Below, piece by piece: positions 31,480 through 44,932 of a stretch of DNA of 64,000 nt. The position numbers were made by a program, and so were the translations under genes. Source of the DNA: Longimicrobiales bacterium (GTDB lineage Bacteria > Gemmatimonadota > Gemmatimonadetes > Longimicrobiales > Gaopeijiaceae); the NCBI GenBank assembly GCA_965116905.1, contig OZ220732.1, forward strand, positions 3,328,001 to 3,392,000. Direction: 5' to 3'. The notes under the pieces are model-generated. The model worked only from the letters and a program-made list of their open reading frames with translations, ran no database searches and had not been told where the DNA came from. Within the stretch, counting starts at the first letter, position 1. Each line of letters starts with the position of its first letter.

Positions 31480-32040
31480 ATGCTGCGCACCGTGGCGCGT
31501 CCGGGCGTGATCGTGGCGGGCATCCTCGCCCTGCTGGCCGCCGCATTCCTGATCGTGGGCATCCTCCTGTCGGGGATCGTCGAGGTCCGGCGGACGGTGG
31601 AGATCGAAGCAGCTCCCGAGACGGTGTTCCCCTTCGTCAACGACCTGGAGGCGTGGACGGAGTGGACGCCGTGGGGCGAGGTGGACTCACGGCTCGAAGG
31701 CCCGCGCGGGGGCGCTGGCGCGCGCCGCGTTTGGGACGACCCCTCGCTGGGGTCCGGATCGCTGACGCTGCTGGACACGCGGCCGCCGGCAAGGGTGGAC
31801 TACCTCGTTGAAATCGAGGATGGGGCCATACGCTTCGAGGGAACGATCGCCATCGAGGCCGGGGGACCGGGATCGCTGGTCACTTGGACCGAGCGGGCCG
31901 ATCTCGGCTGGAATCCCATCCTGGGGTGGACGGCCCTGACGCTGGACGAGTCCCAGGGCCGGCAGTTGAGCGAGAGCCTCGAAATGCTGAAGCGGCTCGT
32001 TGAAGAACGTGGGAGCGGCGCGGCCGGCCAGAGTCTCTAG
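31480..32040 (+). CDS. SRPBCC (polyketide cyclase/dehydrase-like) family protein
   Basis: N-terminal TM, VRRTVEIEAAPETVF..WTEWTPW, and C-terminal LEMLKRLVE helix. Confidence 0.8.
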   Translation: MLRTVARPGVIVAGILALLAAAFLIVGILLSGIVEVRRTVEIEAAPETVFPFVNDLEAWTEWTPWGEVDSRLEGPRGGAGARRVWDDPSLGSGSLTLLDTRPPARVDYLVEIEDGAIRFEGTIAIEAGGPGSLVTWTERADLGWNPILGWTALTLDESQGRQLSESLEMLKRLVEERGSGAAGQSL

Positions 32041-33323
32041 AGTCTCTCCAGAGCCACGGCAATGAGTTCGTCGTTGGACCGTGTCTGACGCATGACCCGC
32101 AGGAGCTCGTCCATCGCTTCCGCGGGATGCGAGGACGAAAGCTGGCGCCGCATGGCCCGCGACAGCCTGAGCGCCTCCGGCGAAAGCAGCAGCTCCTCCT
32201 TCCGCGTCGCGGAGGCCCGCAGATCGATGGCCGGGAAGATGCGGCGGTCGGCGATTTCGCGGCTGAGCACCAGCTCACTGTTCCCCGTACCCTTGAACTC
32301 CTCGAAGATCACCTGGTCCATGCGCGACCCCGTGTCGACCAGGGCGGTGGCAATGATCGTAAGCGATCCGCCCCCCTGATCCTCCTTGATCAGCCGTGCG
32401 CTCCCGAGGAACCGCTTGGGCTTCTCGAGCGAGTTCGCGTCCAGTCCACCCGAGAGCGTGCGCCCGCTCCCCTCCTCGACCGTGTTGTGGGCACGCGCCA
32501 GGCGCGTGATGGAGTCGAGTATGATGACCACGTCGTGGCCCGCCTCGACCCGCCGGCGGGCACGCGCAAGCGTCATCTCGGCGACCTGGCAGTGGCGCTC
32601 GGCGGTGAGATCGAATGTCGAAGCGATGACCTCGCCGAAGCCGCACATCTCCATCTCGGTGACTTCCTCGGGCCGCTCGTCGACCAGCAGGATCATGAGC
32701 TCGCACTCCGGGTGGTTATTCACGACACCCTCGGCCACGGCCTGCAGGATCGTGGTCTTCCCCGCCTTTGCGGGGGCCACGATCATTGCGCGTTGTCCTT
32801 TGCCCAGCGGGCAGAAGAGGTCGATGATCCGATTGGTCATGTCCGGCTCTCCGGCGTGCACGCGGTCGCACTCCAATCGGAGTTGGTCTCGCGGGTGCAT
32901 CGCGCTGAGCCGGTTGAAATCGGGCCGGCCGGTGGCGGTGTCCGGCGCCTGTCCGTTGACCTGGTCCAGGTAACGGAGCGGCGGACTCTTTCCGTTGCGG
33001 GGGCGACGTCCGACGATCCCGGCCAGTTGGTCGCCCGTACGGAGGCCGAACCTGTGGATCAGGCGGGATCCCACATAGATGTCGTTCTTGCCGGGGATGT
33101 ATCCGTCGTCGGGCCTGCGAATGAAGCCCGACCCGCTCGGGAGTACTTCGAGCACCCCGAGAACCTCGCCGGATTCTCTGTTCTCGTCGTTGACCTGCAC
33201 TTCGTCTTCCTCCTGGGGACGCCACCCTCGCCTGCGGCGCCCGCGCCCTCTTCCCCGTCGACCTCTCCGGGGCTGTCTGTTTTCTCGGGATTCTGTGGGG
33301 GCTTGTTCGGTCACGGTTGTCAC
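32037..33323 (-). CDS. rho: Transcription termination factor Rho
   Basis: GSGFIR/DIYV RNP motifs, GKGQR..APAKAGKT, LVDERPEEVT, DSITRLARAHN and EEFKGTGNSEL. Start is GTG 33323 or 33314. Confidence 0.95.
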   Translation of the reverse strand: MTTVTEQAPTESRENRQPRRGRRGRGRGRRRRGWRPQEEDEVQVNDENRESGEVLGVLEVLPSGSGFIRRPDDGYIPGKNDIYVGSRLIHRFGLRTGDQLAGIVGRRPRNGKSPPLRYLDQVNGQAPDTATGRPDFNRLSAMHPRDQLRLECDRVHAGEPDMTNRIIDLFCPLGKGQRAMIVAPAKAGKTTILQAVAEGVVNNHPECELMILLVDERPEEVTEMEMCGFGEVIASTFDLTAERHCQVAEMTLARARRRVEAGHDVVIILDSITRLARAHNTVEEGSGRTLSGGLDANSLEKPKRFLGSARLIKEDQGGGSLTIIATALVDTGSRMDQVIFEEFKGTGNSELVLSREIADRRIFPAIDLRASATRKEELLLSPEALRLSRAMRRQLSSSHPAEAMDELLRVMRQTRSNDELIAVALERL

Positions 33324-34057: not shown

Positions 34058-34098
34058 CAAGGAGTTAGTCCGATCTTTCGTTTTGGCATGATCGATGC
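34058..34098 (+). promoter_or_regulatory. Candidate sigma54 promoter with upstream IHF-like site
   Basis: TGGCATGATCGATGC (34084-34098) is GG-N10-GC in a TGGCA..TGC context. CAA-ggag-TTA at 34058-34067 resembles the IHF core. GGAGG RBS and ATG at 34140. Confidence 0.6.
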
Positions 34099-34139
34099 GT
34101 GTCGTTAGCCGCGATTCCCTCTTACGCGGAGGCCGAAAT

Positions 34140-35477
34140 ATGAAGCACGCAAGAGCGATACTCGTGGCGGCGGCGATGCTTGCGGGGCCGGCCTCGGCCG
34201 GTGCTCAGGTGACCAATCACGTTTCCTGGCAAATGGGTCTGGCTGCGGGCGGCTATCCGTCCTGGACCGTCCCCGGAGTCGGGCTCGGTTACGAGCCGTT
34301 CGGCCTGCGCCGGGGGATCGGGTTCGGATTCGGGTTGGGTGTGTCGTTCGGCATTGGCTTCGGATGGTCGGACGACTATTGGGGCGGATACCGACACGGA
34401 TTCCTCGGGGGCTCCCACTGCTGGGATGCCTACTACGATCCATTCCTCTACGATCCGTACTTCGATTGCTGGGGCGTCGGTCCACTCGGTTACAGCCCAT
34501 TCGGATGGTACGGGTGGGACACCCCCTGGTTGAGGCCCTTCGGATTTCTCGGTTGGCCGTCCCGCCGTTATGTCGCCCGGCACTACTACGGGTGGGCGCC
34601 GGGTTGGACCTACGGGTGGGGACCGAGCTGGTCCTATGCGTGGGCGCCGAGTTGGTCGCACTACCCATACGGGTTGTACGGGGGACGGTCCTGGGGATAC
34701 GGAAACTGGGACGACGACTGGCGGTACCGATCCCGTGTCCGCTACGCGAACGATGGCTACGGTGGCCGGTCGCCCCTCTTCGGCCCTCAATTCAAGGAGC
34801 CACCGGTGTACGTGACCGACAACGGTCCGGAGCGCCCGGTGGCCACCCTGAGGCCACGAGGACCCAATGCAACCCTGGACGATATCGACTCCCGGCGCGG
34901 CCGCAGCCGCCTTGGGGACGGGGCAGCCCAATTGCGGGGCAACACGGGGGTGCGCACGGCGCGTCCGCGCAACCAGCCGGGAGCCAGGACGGCGACCCCG
35001 AGGCCATCGACGCGCGGCGCGCCCACCGCGACCAGACGACCCTCACCGCTCCGCGGCACGCCGCCGAAGGTGACCAGGCGTCCGGAAGCCGTGACCACCC
35101 GCCAGCCCACCCGGCGACCGACGCCGCAGACGCGCTCCGCGCCGACGCGGCGGCCACAGCCTTCCGTGCGGACGCCGGCTCCCCGCCGCACGCCGACCAC
35201 GGTGCGCACGTCGCCTCCGAAGCGTCCGCCAGCGGTCCGGACCGCGCCCCGGCGGCCCGCGGTCAGGTCGACCGCGCCTCGCCGCTCGCCGCCGAAGGTA
35301 CGGTCCTCGGCGCCGCGGCGATCGCCGCCCAAGGCTCGTCCGGCACCACGGCGCGCACCGCCCAAGGCCCGTCCAGCGCCACGGCGCGCACCGCCCAAGG
35401 CCCGTCCGGCGCCCAAGCGCCCCCCCTCGAGGGCGCCCGCCAAGCGAAGCGCGCCGCCGCGGCGGCGCGGAGGATGA
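34140..35477 (+). CDS. Secreted low-complexity protein with Gly/Trp/Tyr-rich domain and Arg/Pro-rich repetitive tail
   Basis: Signal peptide ending AGA-Q, GGAGG RBS, and 33-bp repeats encoding RR(S/A)PPKARPAP. Confidence 0.75.
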   Translation: MKHARAILVAAAMLAGPASAGAQVTNHVSWQMGLAAGGYPSWTVPGVGLGYEPFGLRRGIGFGFGLGVSFGIGFGWSDDYWGGYRHGFLGGSHCWDAYYDPFLYDPYFDCWGVGPLGYSPFGWYGWDTPWLRPFGFLGWPSRRYVARHYYGWAPGWTYGWGPSWSYAWAPSWSHYPYGLYGGRSWGYGNWDDDWRYRSRVRYANDGYGGRSPLFGPQFKEPPVYVTDNGPERPVATLRPRGPNATLDDIDSRRGRSRLGDGAAQLRGNTGVRTARPRNQPGARTATPRPSTRGAPTATRRPSPLRGTPPKVTRRPEAVTTRQPTRRPTPQTRSAPTRRPQPSVRTPAPRRTPTTVRTSPPKRPPAVRTAPRRPAVRSTAPRRSPPKVRSSAPRRSPPKARPAPRRAPPKARPAPRRAPPKARPAPKRPPSRAPAKRSAPPRRRGG

Positions 35478-35495: not shown

Positions 35496-36722
35496 TCAGG
35501 AGATCGGCTCGCCGTTCTTGACCAGCGACCGAAGCGGACTGGTTCCCACCCAATAGCACAACTCCGCCACGTCGCGAACATCCCACAGGGCAAAGTCGGC
35601 GCGCATCCCGGGCCGCAGAACGCCCCGGTCGTGCTCCAGCGCCAGGACCTTCGCCGCGGCGGCGGTCAGTCCCAGCAGGGTCTCCTCCGGGGTGAGTCCG
35701 AAGAGGATGCACGCGAGGTTCATGACCGCGCCCACATGGGTGATCGGTGAGGAACCGGGGTTGGCATCCGTGGCGATGGCCATCGTCACGCCGCTTCGCC
35801 GCAGGGCGGTGACGGGCGGCCTGCGGTCCGCCCCCAGAGTGTAGGCCGCGCCGGGAAGGAGGACCGCGCACACATCCGCCTCGGCCATGGCGGCGACGCC
35901 CTGAGGGGAAAGGTACTCCAGGTGGTCGGCGGAGCGGGCGCCCACGGCAGCGGCCAGTGCGCCTCCGCCGAGGTCGGCGAGCTGGTCGGCGTGGAGACGC
36001 CCGTGCAGCCCCGCCCGGGTCCCGGCTTCCAGGATGCGGCGGCTTTCCGAGGGCGTGAAAGCGATGTCCTCGCAGAAGACGTCGATGGCCGTGGCGTGAC
36101 CCTGTTCCAGCGCGGCGGGCAGGATGCGGTCCAGGACCAGGTGGACGTAGTCTTCGCGGCGCCCGGCGTATTCGGGCGGGAGCGCGTGCGCGGCGAGCAG
36201 CGTGGGCGAGATGTCCGCGGGGAGGTGGCCGGAGAGTCCGGCGGCGACATCGAGCATGCGAAGCTCGGTGTCCGGATCCAGTCCGTAGCCTGACTTGACC
36301 TCGATGGTGGTGACGCCCCAGGAGCAGAGTTCACGGCCCCTGGCGACGGCGCCGGCGGTCAGTGCGTCGTGTGTGGCCGCGCGGGTGGCGCGCACCGTCG
36401 ACATGATGCCGCCGCCCGCTCTGGCGATCTCGGCGTAGGACTCGCCCCGCAGCCGACGCCGGAAGTCGTCGGTTCGGTCCCCGCCGAAGACGATGTGGGT
36501 GTGGCAGTCGATGAGACCCGGGGTGAGCCAGGCGCCGTGGCAGCTGACGACGTCCCGGGCCATCTGCGCGTGGCCGGCCGGAAGTTCAGCCTCCCGTCCG
36601 AGCCAGGCGATCCGCCCGCCGGTGGCCGCAATGGCGCCGTCCTCGATCAGTCCCAGCGAGGCATCGGTCATGGTTGCAAGGTTGACGCCGGTCCAGAGTC
36701 GGTCCCAGGGCTTGGCGGGCAT
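35496..36722 (-). CDS. hutI: Imidazolonepropionase
   Basis: PGLIDCHTH, EVKSGYGL, HADQL, SADHLE and TDANPGS. Confidence 0.95.
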   Translation of the reverse strand: MPAKPWDRLWTGVNLATMTDASLGLIEDGAIAATGGRIAWLGREAELPAGHAQMARDVVSCHGAWLTPGLIDCHTHIVFGGDRTDDFRRRLRGESYAEIARAGGGIMSTVRATRAATHDALTAGAVARGRELCSWGVTTIEVKSGYGLDPDTELRMLDVAAGLSGHLPADISPTLLAAHALPPEYAGRREDYVHLVLDRILPAALEQGHATAIDVFCEDIAFTPSESRRILEAGTRAGLHGRLHADQLADLGGGALAAAVGARSADHLEYLSPQGVAAMAEADVCAVLLPGAAYTLGADRRPPVTALRRSGVTMAIATDANPGSSPITHVGAVMNLACILFGLTPEETLLGLTAAAAKVLALEHDRGVLRPGMRADFALWDVRDVAELCYWVGTSPLRSLVKNGEPIS

Positions 36723-36829: not shown

Positions 36830-38293
36830 GTGGCCGAGAACACGCTGAACGCAAACTCCGGATACCGCGCCTACCGGTTCGATCGGGTCCTGGTCGGGGA
36901 CGGCTGGCGACGCGATGTCGAGGTCCGGGTGGATGGGGTCGGCCGGATCGCCGAGGTGAGGGCGGGTGTCGAGGAGTCCCGCGGCGAACGGGTGTCGGGG
37001 TGGGCCGTGCCCGGGGTGCCGAACGTACACGGTCACTCGTTTCAGCGCGCCCTGGCCGGGCTCGCGGAGGGACCGGGGCCCGATTCGTTCTGGGGCTGGC
37101 GGGATGCGATGTACTCCTTCCTCGAACGGCTGACGCCCGACGACCTGGAGGCGATCACGACCCACCTCTACGTCGAGCTTCTGAAGGCCGGCTTCACGTG
37201 CGTCGGCGAATTCCACTACCTCCACCGCCCGCCCGGGGGTGGCGCGTACGACGATCCCGCCGAGATGAGCCGGCGCATCCTGGCCGCGGCGCGGACATCG
37301 GGGCTGTGCCTGGTGCACATGCCGGCCGTCTACGAGTCGGGCGGCTTCGGCGGACAGCCGCTCGCGGGCGGTCAGGAGCGATTCCGCATGGACCTGGCGG
37401 GCGCGGTGCGGTTGCACGAGATGTTGGGAAGCGAGGCTCGGGGATCGTCGGTCTCCCTGGGGTGGGCGCTGCACAGCCTGAGGGCGGTGTCGCCCGGGTC
37501 GTTTCGGGAGTTGGCGGCGCTGCTGGCCGGCGATGCGGAAGACGGCGCCCCGCCCGTGCACGTTCACGTGGCCGAACAGCGGCGGGAGGTGCGCGAGTGC
37601 ATCGCCGACCGGGGCGCGCGCCCGGTGGAGTGGCTTCTCGATCACGCGGCCGTCGACGAACGGTGGTGCCTGATCCACGCCACCCACACGACCGAGGCGG
37701 AGCTGGACGGCGTCGCGCGTCGGGGTGCGGTCGTGGGGCTGTGCCCGACCACCGAGGCGAACCTGGGTGACGGGCTGTTTCCTCTGCGCGCCTTCGCGGC
37801 CCGGGGCGGGAGCTTCGCCATCGGCACGGACAGCCACGTGTCGCGCAGCCCGGTCGAGGAACTGCGCCTGCTGGACTACGGACAGCGGCTTCGGTCGGAG
37901 GGCCGTACCGTGTTGGGCGGTGCCGGCGAGGGGGGACCTGGCGGCGAGCCCGGGGATGACGCCACACGGGCGGTCGGAGCCCTGTCCGGGGCGGGCGGCA
38001 CGCTCCTGCGCCACGCCTGGCGGGGCGGATCGCAGGCGCTGGGCGTGGACTGCGGAAGCATCGAGCCCGGGATGCGGGCGGATCTGGCGGTCCTGGACGC
38101 GGACCACCCGGCGCTGGTCGGGCGCCGCGGCCACGCCGTGCTCGATTCGTGGATCTTCTCCGGCACCGACAACCCGGTGCGCGACGTGATGGTCGGCGGA
38201 GAGTGGGTGGTGAGGGATGGCCGTCACCCGCGCGAGGAGGCGGTGCGGCGCGCGTATGCCCGGGCCGTGGAGGGTCTGGCACGCCGCAGATAG
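36830..38293 (+). CDS. hutF: Formimidoylglutamate deiminase
   Basis: NVHGHSFQR, GEFHYLH, HSLRAV, HVHVAEQ and CPTTEANLGDG. AGGAG RBS before GTG. Confidence 0.93.
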   Translation: MAENTLNANSGYRAYRFDRVLVGDGWRRDVEVRVDGVGRIAEVRAGVEESRGERVSGWAVPGVPNVHGHSFQRALAGLAEGPGPDSFWGWRDAMYSFLERLTPDDLEAITTHLYVELLKAGFTCVGEFHYLHRPPGGGAYDDPAEMSRRILAAARTSGLCLVHMPAVYESGGFGGQPLAGGQERFRMDLAGAVRLHEMLGSEARGSSVSLGWALHSLRAVSPGSFRELAALLAGDAEDGAPPVHVHVAEQRREVRECIADRGARPVEWLLDHAAVDERWCLIHATHTTEAELDGVARRGAVVGLCPTTEANLGDGLFPLRAFAARGGSFAIGTDSHVSRSPVEELRLLDYGQRLRSEGRTVLGGAGEGGPGGEPGDDATRAVGALSGAGGTLLRHAWRGGSQALGVDCGSIEPGMRADLAVLDADHPALVGRRGHAVLDSWIFSGTDNPVRDVMVGGEWVVRDGRHPREEAVRRAYARAVEGLARRR

Positions 38294-38359: not shown

Positions 38360-40021
38360 CTACGGCATCGGGATCCGGACGCCCTTGTCGCGCGCGGTCG
38401 CGATGGCTGCCTCGTACCCCGCGTCGGCGTGTCTGGCCACGCCGAGCCCCGGGTCGTTGGTCAGCACCCGCTCGATCCGGGTCCGCATCTCGGGGGTGCC
38501 GTCGGCCACCAGCACCTGTCCCGCGTGCAGCGAGTCCCCGATGCCCACGCCGCCACCGTGGTGGAACGACACCCAGCTCGCGCCGGACGCCGTGTTGAGA
38601 AGCGCATTCAGGACCGGCCAGTCCGCCACGGCGTCGGTGCCGTCCTTCATCGCCTCGGTTTCGCGGTAGGGCGACGCGACCGAGCCCGTGTCGAGGTGAT
38701 CGCGTCCGATCACGATGGGGGCACTGATCTCGCCGCTGGCGACCAGATCGTTCATGGCGACGCCGAACGCCGCCCTCTCCCCCTGCCCCAGCCAGCAGAT
38801 CCGCGACGGCAGCCCCTGGAACGCCACCTGCTCGCGCGCCAGGCGGATCCAGCGGCAGAGATGCTCGTCGCCGGGGAACATTTCCAGCACGAGGTCGTCG
38901 GTCCGGTGGATGTCGGCAGGGTCACCCGAAAGCGCCACCCACCGAAAGGGCCCCTTGCCGAGGCAGAACAGCGGGCGCACATACGCGGGCACGAAGCCCG
39001 GGTAGGCGAAGGCGTCCTCGAAGCCCGCTTCCCGCGCGTAGCCGCGGAGGTTGTTGCCGTAGTCGACCGCCACGGCGCCTCGCGCGGCCATCTCCACGAT
39101 GGCTTCGCAGTGTTGGCGGATCGATGCCATCGCGTGCTGCCGGTATTCGGCTCGATCGCGATTCCGCAAGACGGCGGCCTCATCGATCGAGAAACCGCAA
39201 GGCACGTACCCATCCACCGGATCGTGGGCCGAGGTCTGGTCGGTCACGATGTCGGGCGTCACGCCGCGCCGGACCAGCTCCGGGAGCACGTCGGCGCAGT
39301 TGCGGACCAGCCCCACCGACAGCGCCTCCCCGGCCCCCGCCGCCTCCTGCGCCCAGCCGACCGCCTCGTCGAGATCGTGCGTCATGCGGTCGCAGTAGCG
39401 GGTCTCGATCCGGCGGCGGATGCGCTCGGGGTCCACCTCGACGACGAGGACCGCGGCCCCGTTCATCGTGCCCGCGAGCGGTTGGGCGCCCCCCATGCCC
39501 CCCATGCCCCCCGTGAGGATCCACCGCCCCGCCAGGGTCCCGCCGAAGTGGGTCCGCGCGATGGCGCCGAAGGTCTCGTAGGTGCCCTGCAGGATGCCCT
39601 GCGTACCGATGTAGATCCACGAGCCCGCGGTCATCTGGCCGTACATCATGAGCCCCTTGCGCTCCAGCTCATGAAAGTGCTCCCAGGTGGCCCAGCGGCC
39701 GACCAGGTTCGAATTGGCGATCAGCACGCGGGGGGCGTGGGCGTGGGTGCGGAAGACGCCGACGGGCTTGCCGGACTGCACCAGCAGGGTCTCGTCGTTC
39801 TCGAGCGCCCGAAGAGCCGCAACGATGGCGTCGAAGGCCGCCCAGTTCCGCGCGGCCCGCCCGGTGCCCCCGTAGACCACCAGGTCCTCCGGCTTCTCGG
39901 CCACCTCGGGATCCAGGTTGTTCATGAGCATCCGCAGCGCCGCCTCCTGGGTCCACCCCTTGCAGGTGAGCGTCCCGCCGCGGGGAGCCCGGATCGTGCG
40001 CGTCCGGCCGATGATCGTCAT
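38360..40021 (-). CDS. hutU: Urocanate hydratase
   Basis: [33 protein letters not shown] and GRDHLD. Confidence 0.97.
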
Positions 40022-41586
40022 TGCAGTTCTCCCGTGCGAACCAGTGCCGCGAGCGCCTCCAGATCGTTACCGAGGGGTCTGTCCTCCGTCAGACGCGGGA
40101 CGTGGTTGCGCACGCTCGCCAGTGCGCGTTCCACGCCGACCCCCGCGCGCAGCGGACGGTGGAACTCCACCGCCTGAGCGGCGCACAGGAACTCGGCCGC
40201 AAGCACGATTTCGAGCAGCTCGACGCTCCGCCGCACCTTTCTGGCGGCGGCCATCCCCATGGAGACATGGTCCTCCTGGGCAGCGCTCGTCGACACGGAG
40301 TCGATACTCGCGGGCGTCGCGAGGACGCGCATTTCGGACAGGGCGTCGGCGGCGGTGACCTGCGCGATCATCAGGCCTGACCGGATGCCGGGCCGCGTCG
40401 TAAGGAAGGCCGGGAGCGCGGAGAGGTCGGGATTGAGCAGGCGGTCGATCCGCCGCTCGCAGATCGACGCCATGTCGGCAGCGGCGATGGCAACCAGGTC
40501 CAGGCACTGGGCAACGATTTGCGCGTGGAAGTTGCCGCCGCTGAGCACCACGCCGGGCGCGGCCTCGCCGGGGACGGGTTCGCCGGGGCCGTGCTCGCCG
40601 AGGGGCGCTTGCGGCCGGTCCCCGACAGCCTCGCCCGGCAGGACGAGCGGGTTGTCCGTGGTCGAATTCGCCTCGGTGCTCAGGATGCGGTGCGCATAGC
40701 CGCACGCCTCCCTCGCGGCCCCGTGTACCTGCGGCATGCAGCGCAGCGAGTACGCGTCCTGCACGCGCGGGTCGCCGGTGCGATGCGACTCCCGGATCCC
40801 GGAGCCGTGGAGCAGCGCCCACAGCCGCCGGGCGGTCGCGATCTGGCCCGGGTGCGGACGGGCGGCGTGGATCTCGGGACGGAACGGATCGGGCGTCCCC
40901 CTGAGCCCCTCCAGCGACATGGCTCCCGCGACGTCGGCCGCGTCGAGAGCTCGCTCGAAGCGCCGTAGCGCGAGGGCCCCGATTCCGGTCGTGGCCTGCG
41001 TGCCGTTGATCAGCGCCACCGCCTCCTTCTCGGACAGATCGAGCGGCTCGATGCCGACGGCGCGCAGCATCTCGGTGGCGTCTCCCAATTCGCCGTCCCG
41101 CTCGGCCCGGCCCTCCCCCGTCAGGGCAAGCGCCACGTGCGACAGGGGCGCCAGGTCCCCGCTGGCGCCGACCGAACCGATCTCCGGAACCTCCGGATGG
41201 ACCCCGTGATTGAGGAGATCGAGCAGCCGCTCCACGACGACGAGCCGGCAACCCGACTGGCCGCGCGCCAGCGTATTGGCACGGAGCAGCATGATCGCCC
41301 GGACCTCCGCCACCGGCAGCCGGCGGCCGACTCCGGCGGCGTGGCTGCGGACCATGTTGTGCTGAAGGGCACGCTGGTCAGCGGGGGAGATCCGCACGTC
41401 GGCGAGCCTGCCGAACCCCGTGTTCACGCCGTAGATCGGCCGGCCGCTGCCAAGAAGCTCTTCCAGGATGTCGCGCGAACGGCGTACCCGTCCGGCAGCT
41501 TCGGGGTGGAGGCGCACCGGGCGCCGATCGCACGCCACGGCCTCCAGCTCCGCCAGCGTCAGCCCCTGTCCGTCGATCGTGATCAT
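40018..41586 (-). CDS. hutH: Histidine ammonia-lyase
   Basis: [19 protein letters not shown]-forming [14 protein letters not shown] and GGNFH. Pro/Gly-rich insertion before GGNFH. Confidence 0.96.
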
Positions 41587-42203
41587 GGGCGGTCGTCCGC
41601 GTTGTCGTGCCTTGTTCGCCGCCCGGCATCGAATTCCTCGCGGGTCAACGTGTGGCGCGCGTCCTCCCACTCCTCCTCCAGCTCGACCCCGAGGCCGTCG
41701 GCCAGACGGTTCACGTAGTTGTAGTAGCACGCTACCTGGCAGATATCGAGGACGGCACGGTCGTCGAACCCCGCATCCTTCAGCCGCTCGACATCGGCCG
41801 CGGCCATCGCTCCCGGATCCCGCGTCAGCTTGACCGCGTAGTCGAGCATCGCGGCGTCGGCCGCAGCCAGCGTGGCCGGCCGCCTCCGCCGTGCCAGCGC
41901 ACGGCCAAGATCGGCACTGCCCGTGAGTCGACGGAGTCCCGCCCCGTGGTGGTTGATTCAGTAGAAGCAGTCGTTCTCAACCGATACCGCCACCGCGATC
42001 ATCTCCCTCTGGACCCGCGACAGGGGGGACGGACCCGCCATCAGATGCCTGTACAGGTCGTAGTGGTGCTCCATTGTCGGCGGATTCAGCGAGTGGATGC
42101 GCAGAATGTTGTCCAGCCGCCCGCGGGGGTCGGAGTACCGGTCGTAGAGCGTGGCCAGCCGCTCGCCCGCGTCGCCGCGCCCCACGTATCTGATGTGTGC
42201 CAT
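41583..42203 (-). CDS. AhpD-like/carboxymuconolactone decarboxylase family selenoprotein (CxxU; UGA at 41958-41960)
   Basis: ORFs 41958-42203 and 41583-41849 share a frame. Reading through TGA gives ...REMIAVAVSVENDCFY-U-INHHGAGLRRLTG...AMLDYAVKLT...YYNYVNRLADGLG, an intact ~206-aa family member. Confidence 0.88.
41931..41947 (-). promoter_or_regulatory. Putative bacterial SECIS hairpin
   Basis: ACGGGG-CGGGA-CUCCGU: 6-bp stem with one G-U pair and a G-containing 5-nt loop starting 16 nt after the UGA. Confidence 0.7.
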
Positions 42204-42286
42204 GTGTTCCGGTTTCCGTTCCCCGGTTTGCAGGTCGTGGAATCTACCCTCAGCTTGTCGGATCAGCCTACACCCGGGAGAAGACG

Positions 42287-44932
42287 ATGTTCAAGGTTAC
42301 GGGGAGCCCATGGGCCCGCCCGCAGGGGCAACGAGAGCGGCGCGGCGGCGGGTCGGGAAGCCGCGCGCGGAGCCGAATGGCAGGTCTGCTGGGCGCCACC
42401 GCGGCGCTCTGGGCGGTTGCGGGCCCCGCGCTGGCCCAGGACGATTTCGGGAGCATGGTCGCCGTGTCGGAGGAGGTCGTGATCGTCGGGAAGCCGGGCT
42501 CGGCCCGGGGACCCGCGGCGTTGTACCGGTACGCGCGGTCGGCGGGAGGCGCGTGGATACTGGCCGGGACGATGTCGGTGGCGGCGGAGGCGGCCGCGGG
42601 ACGGCCGTGGTCGCCGTCGTTGCAGTGGCGGGACGGGCGGCTGGTGGTAGCGGCGGGGGATCCGGACGTGCGCTTCGGAGCCCACCTCTTCCGCGACGCC
42701 GGAGGTGGAGACTGGGCACATGAGACCAGCCTCGAGCTGTTGGATATGCCGACCCTCGAGGAATTGACGGACCCCGAACCGCAGACGGACACCGAACCGC
42801 AAACGGGCCCAGGAGCGCAGACGGGCCCCGGAGCGGCAGCCGTCGACTTCGCGGGGATCATGCGAATCCTGCAGCCCGCACCTCGGGCGGTGGCCGTGCA
42901 GGGGGACCGGGTGGCGGTGGCCGTGGGCCGCAACGGGGCGTCGTCGCCCGCGCTGCACATCTTCACCCGCCACCCTGAACGCGGATGGGAACCTCCGACC
43001 ATGATCCAGTTCCCGGCAACCCCGGTGGACGACCTGGGAACGGTGGTTCTGGACGGCGACGAACTGTTCGTGTCCTCCCGGAGTGTCGATGGCGGGGGGA
43101 CGGTGCACGTCCTGGCCCACGACGGGGACCAGTGGATCCCACGCACCCTGCTGCTCCCGGATTCCACGGACTCCGATGCAGGGTTCGGCGCGGCCATCGC
43201 CCGCGCGGGGGACAGGCTTGTGGTCGGCGCGCCCGGATCGGGTCAGGGTACGGGCGCGGTGTATGCGTACCGGCGGGCGATGGACGGAGGGTGGGAGAAG
43301 GACCAGACCCTTCATCCGCCGGATGCCGGGCGAACGGAGGCCGCGCCGGTCTCGGAGGCCGCCACTGACGCCGCAGCCACCGGGGCCGCCGCCACTGACG
43401 CCGCAACCGCCGCGCCCGCCGCCCAGGAGCGCCCCGTGCAGCCCCGGCGTTTCGGGAGCACGGTCGCGATCCTGGGCGACGAACTGTGGATCGGCGCACC
43501 AGGGGCCGCCGCCGGCGCAGGACGGGTGCACCGTTACGAGCTGCGCGATGGGGGCTGGCAGACCGCCGGGCCCGTGGAGAGCACGGCCGGCCCGGGAGCG
43601 GCGTTCGGGGCCGCGCTCGCCCTCGGCCCGACGGTTGCGGTGGTGGGCGCGCCCGGCACCGACGGGGGCTCGGGAGCCGCCCACGTCTTCACGCGGGAGC
43701 CGGGCGGCGAATGGCAGGCGGCGGGGGCGCGGCTTGTCCCCGACAACGGTCTCGAAGCCGTCACCGGCGGCGAGGTGCGCTGCTCCGACGGCGCGGCCGC
43801 GGGATTCGCCTGCGACGGCGTGGATCTCCTCGCATTCCTGCCCACGTCCGCCCTCGGCGGCACACCCGGCGAACGCGTCAGCGACGTCTGGGGGTGGACC
43901 GATCCCGTCACGGGACGTGAATACGCGCTCATCGGCCGCTCAGGAGGCGCGGCGATCGTCGACGTGACCTACGCGGCGGCCCCCCGGTACGTGGGCGTGG
44001 TCCCCGCCAATCCGAGCGGTGCGCGCGACCTGAAGGTCTACGCCGACCACCTCTTCTTCACCGGCGACGGCGCGGGCGACCACGGCCTCGTCGTCTTCGA
44101 CCTCACACGGCTCCGCGACGCCGGCCCGGATCCGGTCGAATTCTCCCCGGACGCCATCTACCGCGGCATCGCGAGCGCCCACAACCTCGTGCTCGACCCG
44201 GAGAGCGGCTTCGCGTTCCCGGTCGGGGCCAGCGGCGGCGGCCAGACGTGCGGGGGCGGCCTCCACATGGTCGACGTGCGAGACCCGAAGTCCCCCGTCT
44301 TCGCCGGCTGCTTCACCGACACCGAGGGGCTGATCTACCCGGGTCGCACCCACGACGCCCAGTGCGTGGTCTACCGCGGGCCGGACGACCGCTTCCAGGG
44401 CCGGGAGCTATGCTTCGCGTCCAACGAGACCGCGCTCCGGATCATCGACGTGACCGACAAGCAGGCCCCGGCGCCGATCGGCACGGCCACCTATCCCGGG
44501 CTGGCCTACGTGCACCAGGGCTGGCTCACCGACGACCAGCGCTACTACTACCTGGACGATGAGCTGGACGAACTGGTCGGCACGGCACCCGCCACGCGGA
44601 CCTTCATTTTCGATGTGGCGGAGCTGGACGACCCCATCCTGGTGGGAAGCGTCGACGGTCCCACCGGGGCCACGGACCACAACCTGTACGTCAAGGGGGA
44701 CCGGATGTACCAGGCCAACTACCAGGCCGGCTTCCGTCTCTTCGACATCAGCGACCCCGAGGCGCCGGTCGAGATCGGCTGGTTCGACACCACGCCGTAC
44801 GAAGGGGATCCGCCCGGGTTCGTGGGCGCGTGGACCGCCTATCCGTTCTTCGAGAGCGGGACGGTGGTGGTCACCAGCATGTACGAGGGTGTGTTCCTGC
44901 TGAGGCCCGGGCCGAGACCGCTGATTCCGTAG
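42287..44932 (+). CDS. Choice-of-anchor B family protein with FG-GAP and LVIVD repeats
   Basis: FG...VVGAP repeats, DVWGWTDP..GREYAL, THDAQCV, YVHQGWL..DDELDE and GAWTAYPFFESG. Confidence 0.85.
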   Translation: MFKVTGSPWARPQGQRERRGGGSGSRARSRMAGLLGATAALWAVAGPALAQDDFGSMVAVSEEVVIVGKPGSARGPAALYRYARSAGGAWILAGTMSVAAEAAAGRPWSPSLQWRDGRLVVAAGDPDVRFGAHLFRDAGGGDWAHETSLELLDMPTLEELTDPEPQTDTEPQTGPGAQTGPGAAAVDFAGIMRILQPAPRAVAVQGDRVAVAVGRNGASSPALHIFTRHPERGWEPPTMIQFPATPVDDLGTVVLDGDELFVSSRSVDGGGTVHVLAHDGDQWIPRTLLLPDSTDSDAGFGAAIARAGDRLVVGAPGSGQGTGAVYAYRRAMDGGWEKDQTLHPPDAGRTEAAPVSEAATDAAATGAAATDAATAAPAAQERPVQPRRFGSTVAILGDELWIGAPGAAAGAGRVHRYELRDGGWQTAGPVESTAGPGAAFGAALALGPTVAVVGAPGTDGGSGAAHVFTREPGGEWQAAGARLVPDNGLEAVTGGEVRCSDGAAAGFACDGVDLLAFLPTSALGGTPGERVSDVWGWTDPVTGREYALIGRSGGAAIVDVTYAAAPRYVGVVPANPSGARDLKVYADHLFFTGDGAGDHGLVVFDLTRLRDAGPDPVEFSPDAIYRGIASAHNLVLDPESGFAFPVGASGGGQTCGGGLHMVDVRDPKSPVFAGCFTDTEGLIYPGRTHDAQCVVYRGPDDRFQGRELCFASNETALRIIDVTDKQAPAPIGTATYPGLAYVHQGWLTDDQRYYYLDDELDELVGTAPATRTFIFDVAELDDPILVGSVDGPTGATDHNLYVKGDRMYQANYQAGFRLFDISDPEAPVEIGWFDTTPYEGDPPGFVGAWTAYPFFESGTVVVTSMYEGVFLLRPGPRPLIP

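What the first reader, a model, noticed from the sequence alone, without database searches (positions are those of the whole stretch)
38360..42203. Histidine catabolism possibly gated by selenocysteine read-through (selenoprotein-hutH-hutU chain of ATGA overlaps)
Seen: the true stop of the selenoprotein overlaps the hutH start (ATGA, 41583-41586), and the hutH stop overlaps the hutU start (ATGA, 40018-40021). I see no clear Shine-Dalgarno before hutH or before the internal Met at 41849. Inference: ribosomes reach the hutH start mainly by decoding UGA as Sec, so selenium supply could tune HutH/HutU through translational coupling or Rho polarity. The redox enzyme may also act on a histidine-derived thiol/selenol (thiohistidine, ovothiol or selenoneine type) feeding the pathway; this part is speculative. 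I know of no described selenoprotein-hut operon.
Basis: partly seen in the sequence, partly recalled or inferred. Interest (0 to 1): 0.72.

Follow-up and report, generated by a model that had tools for sequence, protein, structure and literature searches.

The report
Selenoprotein heads histidine-breakdown operon
In one family of marine Gemmatimonadota bacteria, a known type of selenium-containing redox enzyme gene sits directly in front of, and usually overlaps, the first histidine-breakdown gene, so selenium shortage would likely dampen histidine use, but the comparative evidence suggests this is a side effect of gene order rather than a purpose-built switch.

Summary
A 206-aa AhpD-like gene (TIGR01926, CFYU; UGA at 41958-41960, conserved SECIS-type stem, selA/selB/selD/tRNA-Sec in the genome) overlaps hutH by ATGA, and hutH overlaps hutU. 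The order is family-wide: hutH follows the gene in 90 of 117 genomes (71 with the 4-nt overlap); a hut gene follows in 28 of 33 genera, and in 0 of 30 loci from other families. Translational coupling, hence some selenium-dependent polarity, is likely. A selected selenium gate is poorly supported: the one Cys-coded orthologue with context keeps the overlap; 19 of 90 pairs have a gap; hutH stays intact where the selenoprotein decayed (4 genomes), and the selenoprotein persists without hutH (4); a missed in-frame GTG at 41670 has a GGAGG ribosome site; weak Shine-Dalgarno sites and ATGA overlaps are common genome-wide; sister families keep unrelated genes (LptD, MgtE) before hutH. HutH/HutU are canonical and no EgtB/SenB was found, so the thiohistidine idea is unsupported. 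Known selenoprotein family, known polarity mechanism, undescribed operon context.

The parts
41583..42203 (-). AhpD-like (TIGR01926, CxxU) selenoprotein gene, 206 aa, first gene of the unit
   Evidence: fold matches 3c1l/2pfx/6k40; TGA in all 29 best genus matches
41958..41960 (-). in-frame UGA, Sec82 of C79-F-Y-U82
   Evidence: aligns with Cys of homologues; Sec machinery in genome
41931..41947 (-). SECIS-type stem-loop starting 14 nt after the UGA (6-bp stem, 5-nt G-rich loop)
   Evidence: synonymous sites frozen: Gly codon GGR in 167 of 167 and Leu codon CTY in 167 of 167 distinct UGA homologue sequences vs 40% and 42% genome usage; relaxed in the Cys orthologue; no covariation
41668..41679 (-). 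GGAGG (41679-41675) plus in-frame GTG (41670-41668): possible SD-led alternative start of hutH, adding 28 aa
   Evidence: same site kept open in the four genomes where the selenoprotein decayed; use is inferred
41583..41586 (-). ATGA stop/start overlap selenoprotein-hutH
   Evidence: 71 of 90 adjacent pairs in the family
40018..41586 (-). hutH, histidine ammonia-lyase (ASG MIO motif, SH specificity motif)
   Evidence: TIGR01225 644 bits > 539; closer to HAL structures (357-392 bits) than ergothionase (210 bits)
40018..40021 (-). ATGA overlap hutH-hutU
   Evidence: kept in only 4 of 22 genus loci but 26 of 39 loci of other genera
38360..40021 (-). hutU, urocanate hydratase
   Evidence: TIGR01228 950 bits > 375; below cut-offs of thiourocanate and S-methyl-thiourocanate hydratase models
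36830..38293 (+). hutF, formimidoylglutamate deiminase (start 36779 or 36830), convergent with hutU
35496..36722 (-). hutI, imidazolonepropionase, divergent from hutF, outside the selenoprotein's unit
42241..42246 (-). TAGATT, possible -10 element 38 nt before the selenoprotein start (weak)
   Evidence: TAnnnT within 70 nt upstream in 20 of 43 orthologues; the consensus scanner found no promoter

Best explanation
A real AhpD-like selenoprotein gene sits first in a selenoprotein-hutH-hutU gene run inherited across one family of Longimicrobiales, and its stop overlaps the hutH start, so hutH is likely translated in part by ribosomes that re-initiate after finishing the selenoprotein; selenium shortage would then lower HutH/HutU output, probably as a leaky by-product of gene order rather than a selected switch. 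Shown: gene identities, overlaps, Sec codon, SECIS-type constraint, family-wide order, independent losses. Inferred: co-transcription from a promoter upstream of the selenoprotein, termination-reinitiation at ATGA, partial rescue by the SD-led GTG at 41670, and a general thiol/peroxide-reducing role for the enzyme unrelated to histidine chemistry.
For: Known family and fold (PMC13188914 lists TIGR01926 CxxU as a selenoprotein family). Order conserved only within family f1: 90 of 117 genomes vs 0 of 30 loci of other families. Sister groups keep other, unrelated genes before hutH: LptD-like in f3, MgtE in genus g19, and the divergent K+-channel gene upstream of the selenoprotein is also kept across at least 8 genera, so deep synteny is normal here. 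Outside the genus the selenoprotein-hutH overlap (39 of 58) is kept no more often than hutH-hutU (26 of 39). The Cys orthologue (G443, no selA found, 78% complete) keeps the GTGA overlap with its SECIS relaxed. Losses run both ways: selenoprotein decayed before intact hutH in G004, G026, G028, G032 and absent in G019, G151, selB kept in the five tested; selenoprotein kept with no hutH found in G016, G135, G185, G334 and with hut genes decaying in G469, G514, G515, G530, G501, G616. In other families the same selenoprotein overlaps or abuts unrelated genes (M28 peptidase, RCC1-repeat, DUF885).
Against: Within the genus the overlap is kept in 32 of 32 adjacent pairs while hutH-hutU is kept in 4 of 22, tails vary in length, and no stop arose in 551 tail codons where about 4.5 are expected and 6-7 occur in the other two frames (kin not independent): selection holds this junction, which a regulatory role would also predict. 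A link kept in 28 of 33 genera is strong for a passenger. None of six other selenoprotein candidates in this genome overlaps a downstream gene. No HutC repressor over cut-off, so the hut genes lack their usual control. Only one Cys orthologue had context. No expression data (uninformative).
Confidence: 0.55

Rival explanations
1. The selenoprotein is a working partner of the Hut pathway, co-expressed on purpose: for example it removes peroxide or repairs thiols while histidine is being broken down (imidazolone-propionate is oxygen-labile and urocanase is thiol-sensitive; both recalled, not from a call). The overlap fixes its ratio to HutH; selenium dependence is incidental.
For: Next to a hut gene in 28 of 33 genera and 54 of 65 long-tailed metagenome loci; kept when Sec became Cys; directly coupled to hutU where hutH was deleted (L225); the closest characterised relative DR1765 protects against H2O2 through its CxxC (PMC8945050 passages).
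Against: Each side is lost without the other; no such link in 30 loci from other families of the phylum; no paper with AhpD plus hutH plus histidine utilization.
Confidence: 0.2
2. Selected selenium gate: UGA decoding is the main route to hutH, and the arrangement is kept so that histidine catabolism runs only when selenium is available.
For: Overlap invariant in the genus (32 of 32) with stop-free variable tails; genomes that lost the selenoprotein have good SD pairing before hutH (-8.6 to -10.2 kcal/mol in the four remnant cases) and G004/G026 moved the start to the GGAGG site, as if compensating for lost coupling; Sec recoding is only 30-40% efficient and selenium-dependent in E. coli (PMC4513850, search listing only); polarity at a Sec codon shown in Treponema primitia fdhF (PMC3892789); no HutC.
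Against: Cys orthologue keeps the overlap; 19 of 90 pairs have gaps of up to about 125 nt; SD-led in-frame alternative start in this genome and 14 of 27 orthologues; SD match of 4 nt or more before the overlapped start in 23 of 41 orthologues vs 38 of 123 shifted controls; no C>G rut-like tract after the UGA, only 2 of 11 windows with C>G and then by 1-2 bases; hutI and hutF lie outside the unit; no rationale found for tying histidine use to selenium.
Confidence: 0.12
3. hutH is translated de novo (from the GTG at 41670 or the ATG) or transcribed from an internal promoter, so selenium has no effect at all and the overlap is just compact packing.
For: SD-led in-frame GTG; SD-poor starts are common and hutH genes that lead their own unit in relatives are often SD-poor too (median -3.85 kcal/mol in 40 loci that my script scored as lacking the selenoprotein, a set that by a scoring slip includes this window's own); hutH survives selenoprotein decay.
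Against: No conserved -10-like hexamer in the 3' half of the selenoprotein gene and none from the scanner; the alternative start is absent in 13 of 27 orthologues; most tested E. coli overlaps were coupled (PMC6728339 passages).
Confidence: 0.1
4. The selenoenzyme reduces or desulfurises a thio- or seleno-histidine (ergothioneine, ovothiol, selenoneine type) and feeds the product into HutH/HutU.
For: Adjacency only; the CMD/AhpD fold includes small-molecule enzymes such as debrominase Bmp8 (weak match).
Against: HutH is HAL-type, not ergothionase; HutU is below both thiourocanate hydratase cut-offs; each is single-copy in the genome; no EgtB-family or SenB-family gene over cut-off.
Confidence: 0.03

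Closest known systems
AhpD-like selenoprotein family (TIGR01926 / COG2128, CxxU; 'AhpD-like 1' of the Sargasso Sea and GOS selenoproteomes)
   Same: Passes TIGR01926 cut-off, CxxU motif, AhpD fold; family listed as a selenoprotein in PMC13188914 and PMC2398784 (passages).
   Different: Carries a C-terminal extension typical of this clade and heads a hut operon; the review's operon section names only selenoprotein-selenoprotein or same-pathway operons.
Selenium-dependent transcriptional polarity at the Sec codon of Treponema primitia fdhF(Sec) (Matson et al. 2013, PMC3892789)
   Same: An upstream UGA whose decoding needs selenium can uncouple translation and cut downstream expression.
   Different: There the effect was measured and concerns the selenoprotein gene itself; here it is untested and would fall on non-selenium enzymes of another pathway; no rut-like tract seen here.
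Termination-reinitiation (TeRe) at ATGA overlaps (Huber et al. 2019, PMC6728339)
   Same: 4-nt stop/start overlap; about 15% of co-directed pairs overlap in most groups; SD contribution ranges from essential to none (passages).
   Different: Upstream gene here can be completed only by recoding; coupling not measured.
Deinococcus radiodurans DR1765 (PDB 6k40) and Mlr4105 (3c1l)
   Same: Best structural relatives, 33-36% identity in the structural alignment; DR1765 mutant is H2O2-sensitive and needs its CxxC (PMC8945050 passages).
   Different: Cys enzymes; substrate of the protein here is untested.
Canonical hut pathway (HutH, HutU, HutI, HutF)
   Same: All four pass NCBIfam cut-offs.
   Different: No HutC over cut-off; extra leading selenoprotein gene.

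Membership tests
AhpD-like selenoprotein (TIGR01926, CxxU) | Score over TIGR01926 cut-off | tested here: met
   137.1 vs 81.8 bits
AhpD-like selenoprotein (TIGR01926, CxxU) | In-frame UGA at the position of a conserved catalytic Cys, conserved in relatives | tested here: met
   TGA in 116 of 117 family orthologues, TGC in one; Cys homologues aligned
AhpD-like selenoprotein (TIGR01926, CxxU) | SECIS stem-loop just downstream of UGA | tested here: met
   5 of 5 inner pairs in 167 of 167 distinct sequences with frozen synonymous sites, relaxed in Cys orthologue; no covariation and no folding z-score signal, so support is from constraint only
AhpD-like selenoprotein (TIGR01926, CxxU) | Sec machinery in the genome | tested here: met
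   selA (13), selB (24), selD (46), tRNA-Sec (8)
AhpD-like selenoprotein (TIGR01926, CxxU) | Selenium incorporation and redox activity | not testable with these tools
   needs 75Se labelling or MS and assays
NF041238 AhpD_rel_CFYUT selenoprotein | Score over cut-off 175 | tested here: not met
   58.2 bits
Translationally coupled (TeRe) gene pair | Stop/start overlap conserved | tested here: met
   71 of 90 adjacent pairs; 32 of 32 in genus
Translationally coupled (TeRe) gene pair | Downstream translation depends on upstream termination at the overlap | not testable with these tools
   needs reporter; alternative SD-led start exists
Selenium-responsive regulatory gate | Arrangement specific to the Sec-coded allele | tested here: not met
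   the one Cys orthologue with context keeps the overlap; n = 1
Selenium-responsive regulatory gate | No bypass route to the downstream gene (no SD, Rho-loading tract after UGA) | tested here: not met
   GGAGG-GTG in frame at 41670; no C-rich tract
Selenium-responsive regulatory gate | Downstream mRNA or protein falls under selenium limitation | not testable with these tools
   only contig-level RNA run, flat depth
Ergothioneine/thiohistidine catabolic cluster | Ergothionase-type lyase and thiourocanate hydratase | tested here: not met
Canonical HutH/HutU | Over TIGR01225 and TIGR01228 cut-offs, ASG motif | tested here: met

The most novel reading that the evidence does not exclude
A family of marine Gemmatimonadota that lacks the HutC repressor uses the Sec codon of a leading redox selenoprotein as a selenium sensor, kept by selection, that sets the translation of a selenium-free catabolic pathway: the first case of Sec recoding serving as a trans-pathway metabolic switch.
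Probability: 0.12. Interest if true: 0.75.

Novelty: new variant of a known kind. Interest (0 to 1): 0.33.

Why it matters
The protein family, the pathway and both candidate mechanisms (termination-reinitiation, polarity at an undecoded Sec codon) are known; the new fact is a family-wide operon in which a selenoprotein precedes and overlaps enzymes of an unrelated pathway. It offers a compact natural test of whether Sec recoding efficiency propagates to neighbouring selenium-free genes, and a genomic-context lead for an uncharacterised selenoprotein family. If a selected gate were shown, trace selenium would directly control amino-acid catabolism in common sponge, sediment and seawater bacteria. 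It also flags an annotation trap: callers split this gene into two ORFs.

Tried and rejected
RNA evidence: one metatranscriptome held about half of the words but its contigs cover both strands and intergenic DNA at a flat depth near 33, like DNA; nothing on co-transcription or polarity follows. Single-sequence folding of the SECIS region and of the start regions gave z-scores of 0.2-0.9; covariation was nil because the stem is invariant. Promoter/terminator scan found nothing; Rfam only two tRNAs. De novo selenoprotein scans of the genome were insensitive (they missed this very gene), so the six other candidates are a partial list. The metagenome scan aimed at Cys versions returned none among 80 loci; six other Cys homologues (P0002, P0005-P0009) have no context. 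The hutH tree is a quick tree (careful search unfinished) and cannot tell whether the four remnant genomes are one or several losses. Rejected: TGA as sequencing error or pseudogene stop (conserved in 116 of 117), TGA=Trp code (TGA is the normal stop genome-wide), re-initiation at Met 41849 as a designed second cistron (no SD), thiohistidine catabolism. No complex prediction was sent because I make no binding claim.
Full report
Observation. On the minus strand a 206-aa ORF runs 42203-41583 if TGA at 41958-41960 is read as Sec. Its stop overlaps the hutH ATG (ATGA, 41583-41586), and the hutH stop overlaps the hutU ATG (40018-40021). The protein scores 137 bits on TIGR01926 (cut-off 81.8); HutH, HutU, HutF (36830-38293, +) and HutI (35496-36722, -) pass their cut-offs. 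Record titles of relatives place the organism in Gemmatimonadota, Longimicrobiales.

The selenoprotein is real. The genome has tRNA-Sec, selA, selB and selD. The TGA sits at the second Cys of the CxxC motif of homologues and is kept in 116 of 117 family orthologues. A stem-loop begins 14 nt after it; among 167 distinct UGA-carrying sequences the Gly codon in the stem is always GGR and the Leu codon always CTY (genome usage 40% and 42%), all five inner pairs form in 167 of 167, and the Cys orthologue has CTG there. Covariation is nil and single-sequence folding is not exceptional. The model (pLDDT 76) matches AhpD-like structures 3c1l, 2pfx, 6k40. The family is a listed selenoprotein family (PMC13188914, PMC2398784; passages seen).

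Conservation of the order. I examined 120 genomes of the family (f1) with an orthologue, drawn; 3 could not be parsed. Of 117, hutH follows directly in 90 (71 with the -4 overlap, 19 with a gap), hutU in 2, something else in 24, contig end in 1; a hut gene follows in 28 of 33 genera, the overlap occurs in 16. Four of the 24 'other' cases are decayed hut clusters. In 80 metagenome loci, 54 of the 65 long-tailed UGA forms had hutH or hutU next (5 lacked room), and 0 of 10 short-tailed forms (3 lacked room); 4 were not parsed and 1 had no readable motif. None of 30 loci from other families of the phylum has a hut gene downstream (three had under 2 kb of room); there the gene abuts or overlaps an M28 peptidase, RCC1-repeat or DUF885 gene. 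A quick hutH tree shows the arrangement on several deep branches of f1, consistent with one old origin and many losses.

Is the overlap under selection? In the genus, yes in appearance: 32 of 32 adjacent pairs overlap, tail length varies from 7 to 49 codons, and 0 stops lie in 551 tail codons against about 4.5 expected and 6 and 7 in the other frames (27 loci, related), while hutH-hutU overlaps in only 4 of 22. Outside the genus the two junctions behave alike: 39 of 58 versus 26 of 39. Overlaps are common here: 588 of 1727 close co-oriented pairs offer a -4 start (own gene caller, upper bound), and about 15% of co-directed pairs overlap in most prokaryote groups (PMC6728339, passages). So coupling is likely but not special.

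Is hutH reachable only through Sec decoding? Probably not. The ATG has a weak SD (3 nt, -3.2 kcal/mol), but so do half of the genome's overlapped starts and the selenoprotein itself. In orthologues an SD match of 4 nt or more precedes the overlapped start in 23 of 41, against 38 of 123 shifted controls. An in-frame GTG at 41670 has GGAGG 4 nt upstream and is open to hutH; a comparable SD-led start exists in 14 of 27 orthologues. In G004, G026, G028 and G032 the selenoprotein has decayed to a 3' remnant that keeps just this site, hutH is over cut-off with no internal stop, and in G004/G026 the old ATG is out of frame so hutH must start in the remnant; G019 and G151 have lost it wholly. selB is present in G004, G019, G026, G028, G032. 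These cases cut both ways: hutH does not need the selenoprotein, but good SD pairing in the remnant genomes (-8.6 to -10.2) fits compensation for lost coupling. The 375 nt after the UGA are G-rich and structured, with no rut-like tract. No internal promoter signal was found. The one RNA run was uninformative.

Is it about selenium? The one Cys-coded orthologue with context (G443; no selA found, 78% complete) keeps the GTGA overlap with hutH. The selenoprotein persists with no hutH found in G016, G135, G185, G334 (93-98% complete) and with hutH elsewhere in G011, G219, G432, G398. Sister groups keep other genes before hutH just as faithfully: LptD-like in family f3, MgtE in genus g19, and a divergent K+-channel gene upstream of the selenoprotein recurs in at least 8 genera. 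On the other side, none of six other selenoprotein candidates in this genome overlaps a downstream gene, and HutC is not found.

Thiohistidine idea. HutH is closer to histidine ammonia-lyases (357-392 bits) than ergothionase (210) and has the ASG motif; HutU is under both thiourocanate hydratase cut-offs; both are single-copy; no EgtB-family or SenB-family gene reaches cut-off. Unsupported.

Mechanism committed to. One transcript (inferred) starts upstream of the selenoprotein; SelB reads the stem and inserts Sec in a fraction of passes (30-40% in E. coli fdhF, PMC4513850, search listing with start of abstract only); ribosomes that finish re-initiate at ATGA on hutH (inferred); those that stop at codon 82 do not, with partial bypass by the GTG start (inferred). 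Selenium limitation would then lower HutH/HutU, as it truncates fdhF transcripts in Treponema primitia (PMC3892789, abstract and passages). I rate this a by-product of an old operon (0.55) over a co-expressed protective partner (0.2), a selected gate (0.12), no coupling (0.1) and thiohistidine chemistry (0.03). The enzyme's likely job is thiol-dependent peroxide defence, as for DR1765 (PMC8945050, passages of a review).

Novelty. Searches for selenoprotein + histidine ammonia-lyase + operon (2 unrelated genome papers, listing only), histidine utilization + AhpD + hutH (none), and selenium/polar effect/coupling terms found no description of this operon in the open library; subscription journals and supplements (for example selenoprotein databases) were not seen. 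An earlier scan report on another genome reached the same reading; it is not independent support. Verdict: confirmed observation, known parts, new conserved context, regulation unproven; interest 0.33.

Noticed in passing
window 32037-33200 (-): Rho-family gene (RNA-binding and ATPase domains); a second Rho, 55% identical, lies at G000:C1:4152716-4153789. The window copy is syntenic with the hut cluster in relatives.
   Followed up: partly
window 42377-44932 (+): Choice-of-anchor B protein with FG-GAP repeats, divergent from the selenoprotein; at least 8 full paralogues in the genome. It lies between tRNA-Cys and the selenoprotein; relatives lacking it have the selenoprotein or hutH about 20-45 nt after tRNA-Cys, so the operon may there be read from the tRNA promoter.
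   Followed up: partly
G000:C1:1296478-1298432: Array of 17 tRNA genes on one strand within 2 kb, possibly a mobile tRNA array.
   Followed up: no
G000:C1 near 3674310, 3903242, 169688, 1254176, 3690576, 4177906 and 641772-642698: Other likely selenoprotein genes: a second CFYU AhpD-like paralogue, a UxxC peroxiredoxin-like gene, two OsmC-like and one MerB-like gene (family labels recalled from motif, not scanned), one uncertain candidate, and selD with an in-frame TGA.
   Followed up: partly
L122 (G152): A Cys-coded homologue outside the family still carries most of the SECIS-type stem (4 of 5 inner pairs), suggesting a recent Sec-to-Cys switch.
   Followed up: no
L302, L260, L272, L305, L298, L315: hut clusters with internal deletions behind an intact selenoprotein; some keep hutU and a formiminotransferase (ftcD) gene. 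Could be real decay or assembly collapse.
   Followed up: partly
L038, L039, L041, L055: In family f3 a TAnnnT hexamer lies 6-8 nt before the hutH ATG, the signature of leaderless transcripts.
   Followed up: no
window 34095-35477 (+): 460-aa ORF with a Gly/Trp/Tyr-rich middle and a Pro/Arg/Ala-rich repeat tail, no Pfam hit, kept next to rho in relatives.
   Followed up: no
window about 40550-40630 (-): HutH carries a roughly 25-residue Pro/Gly/Glu-rich insertion (residues 319-345) absent from solved histidine ammonia-lyases.
   Followed up: no
G000 genome: No HutC repressor over cut-off although hutH, U, I and F are present.
   Followed up: partly
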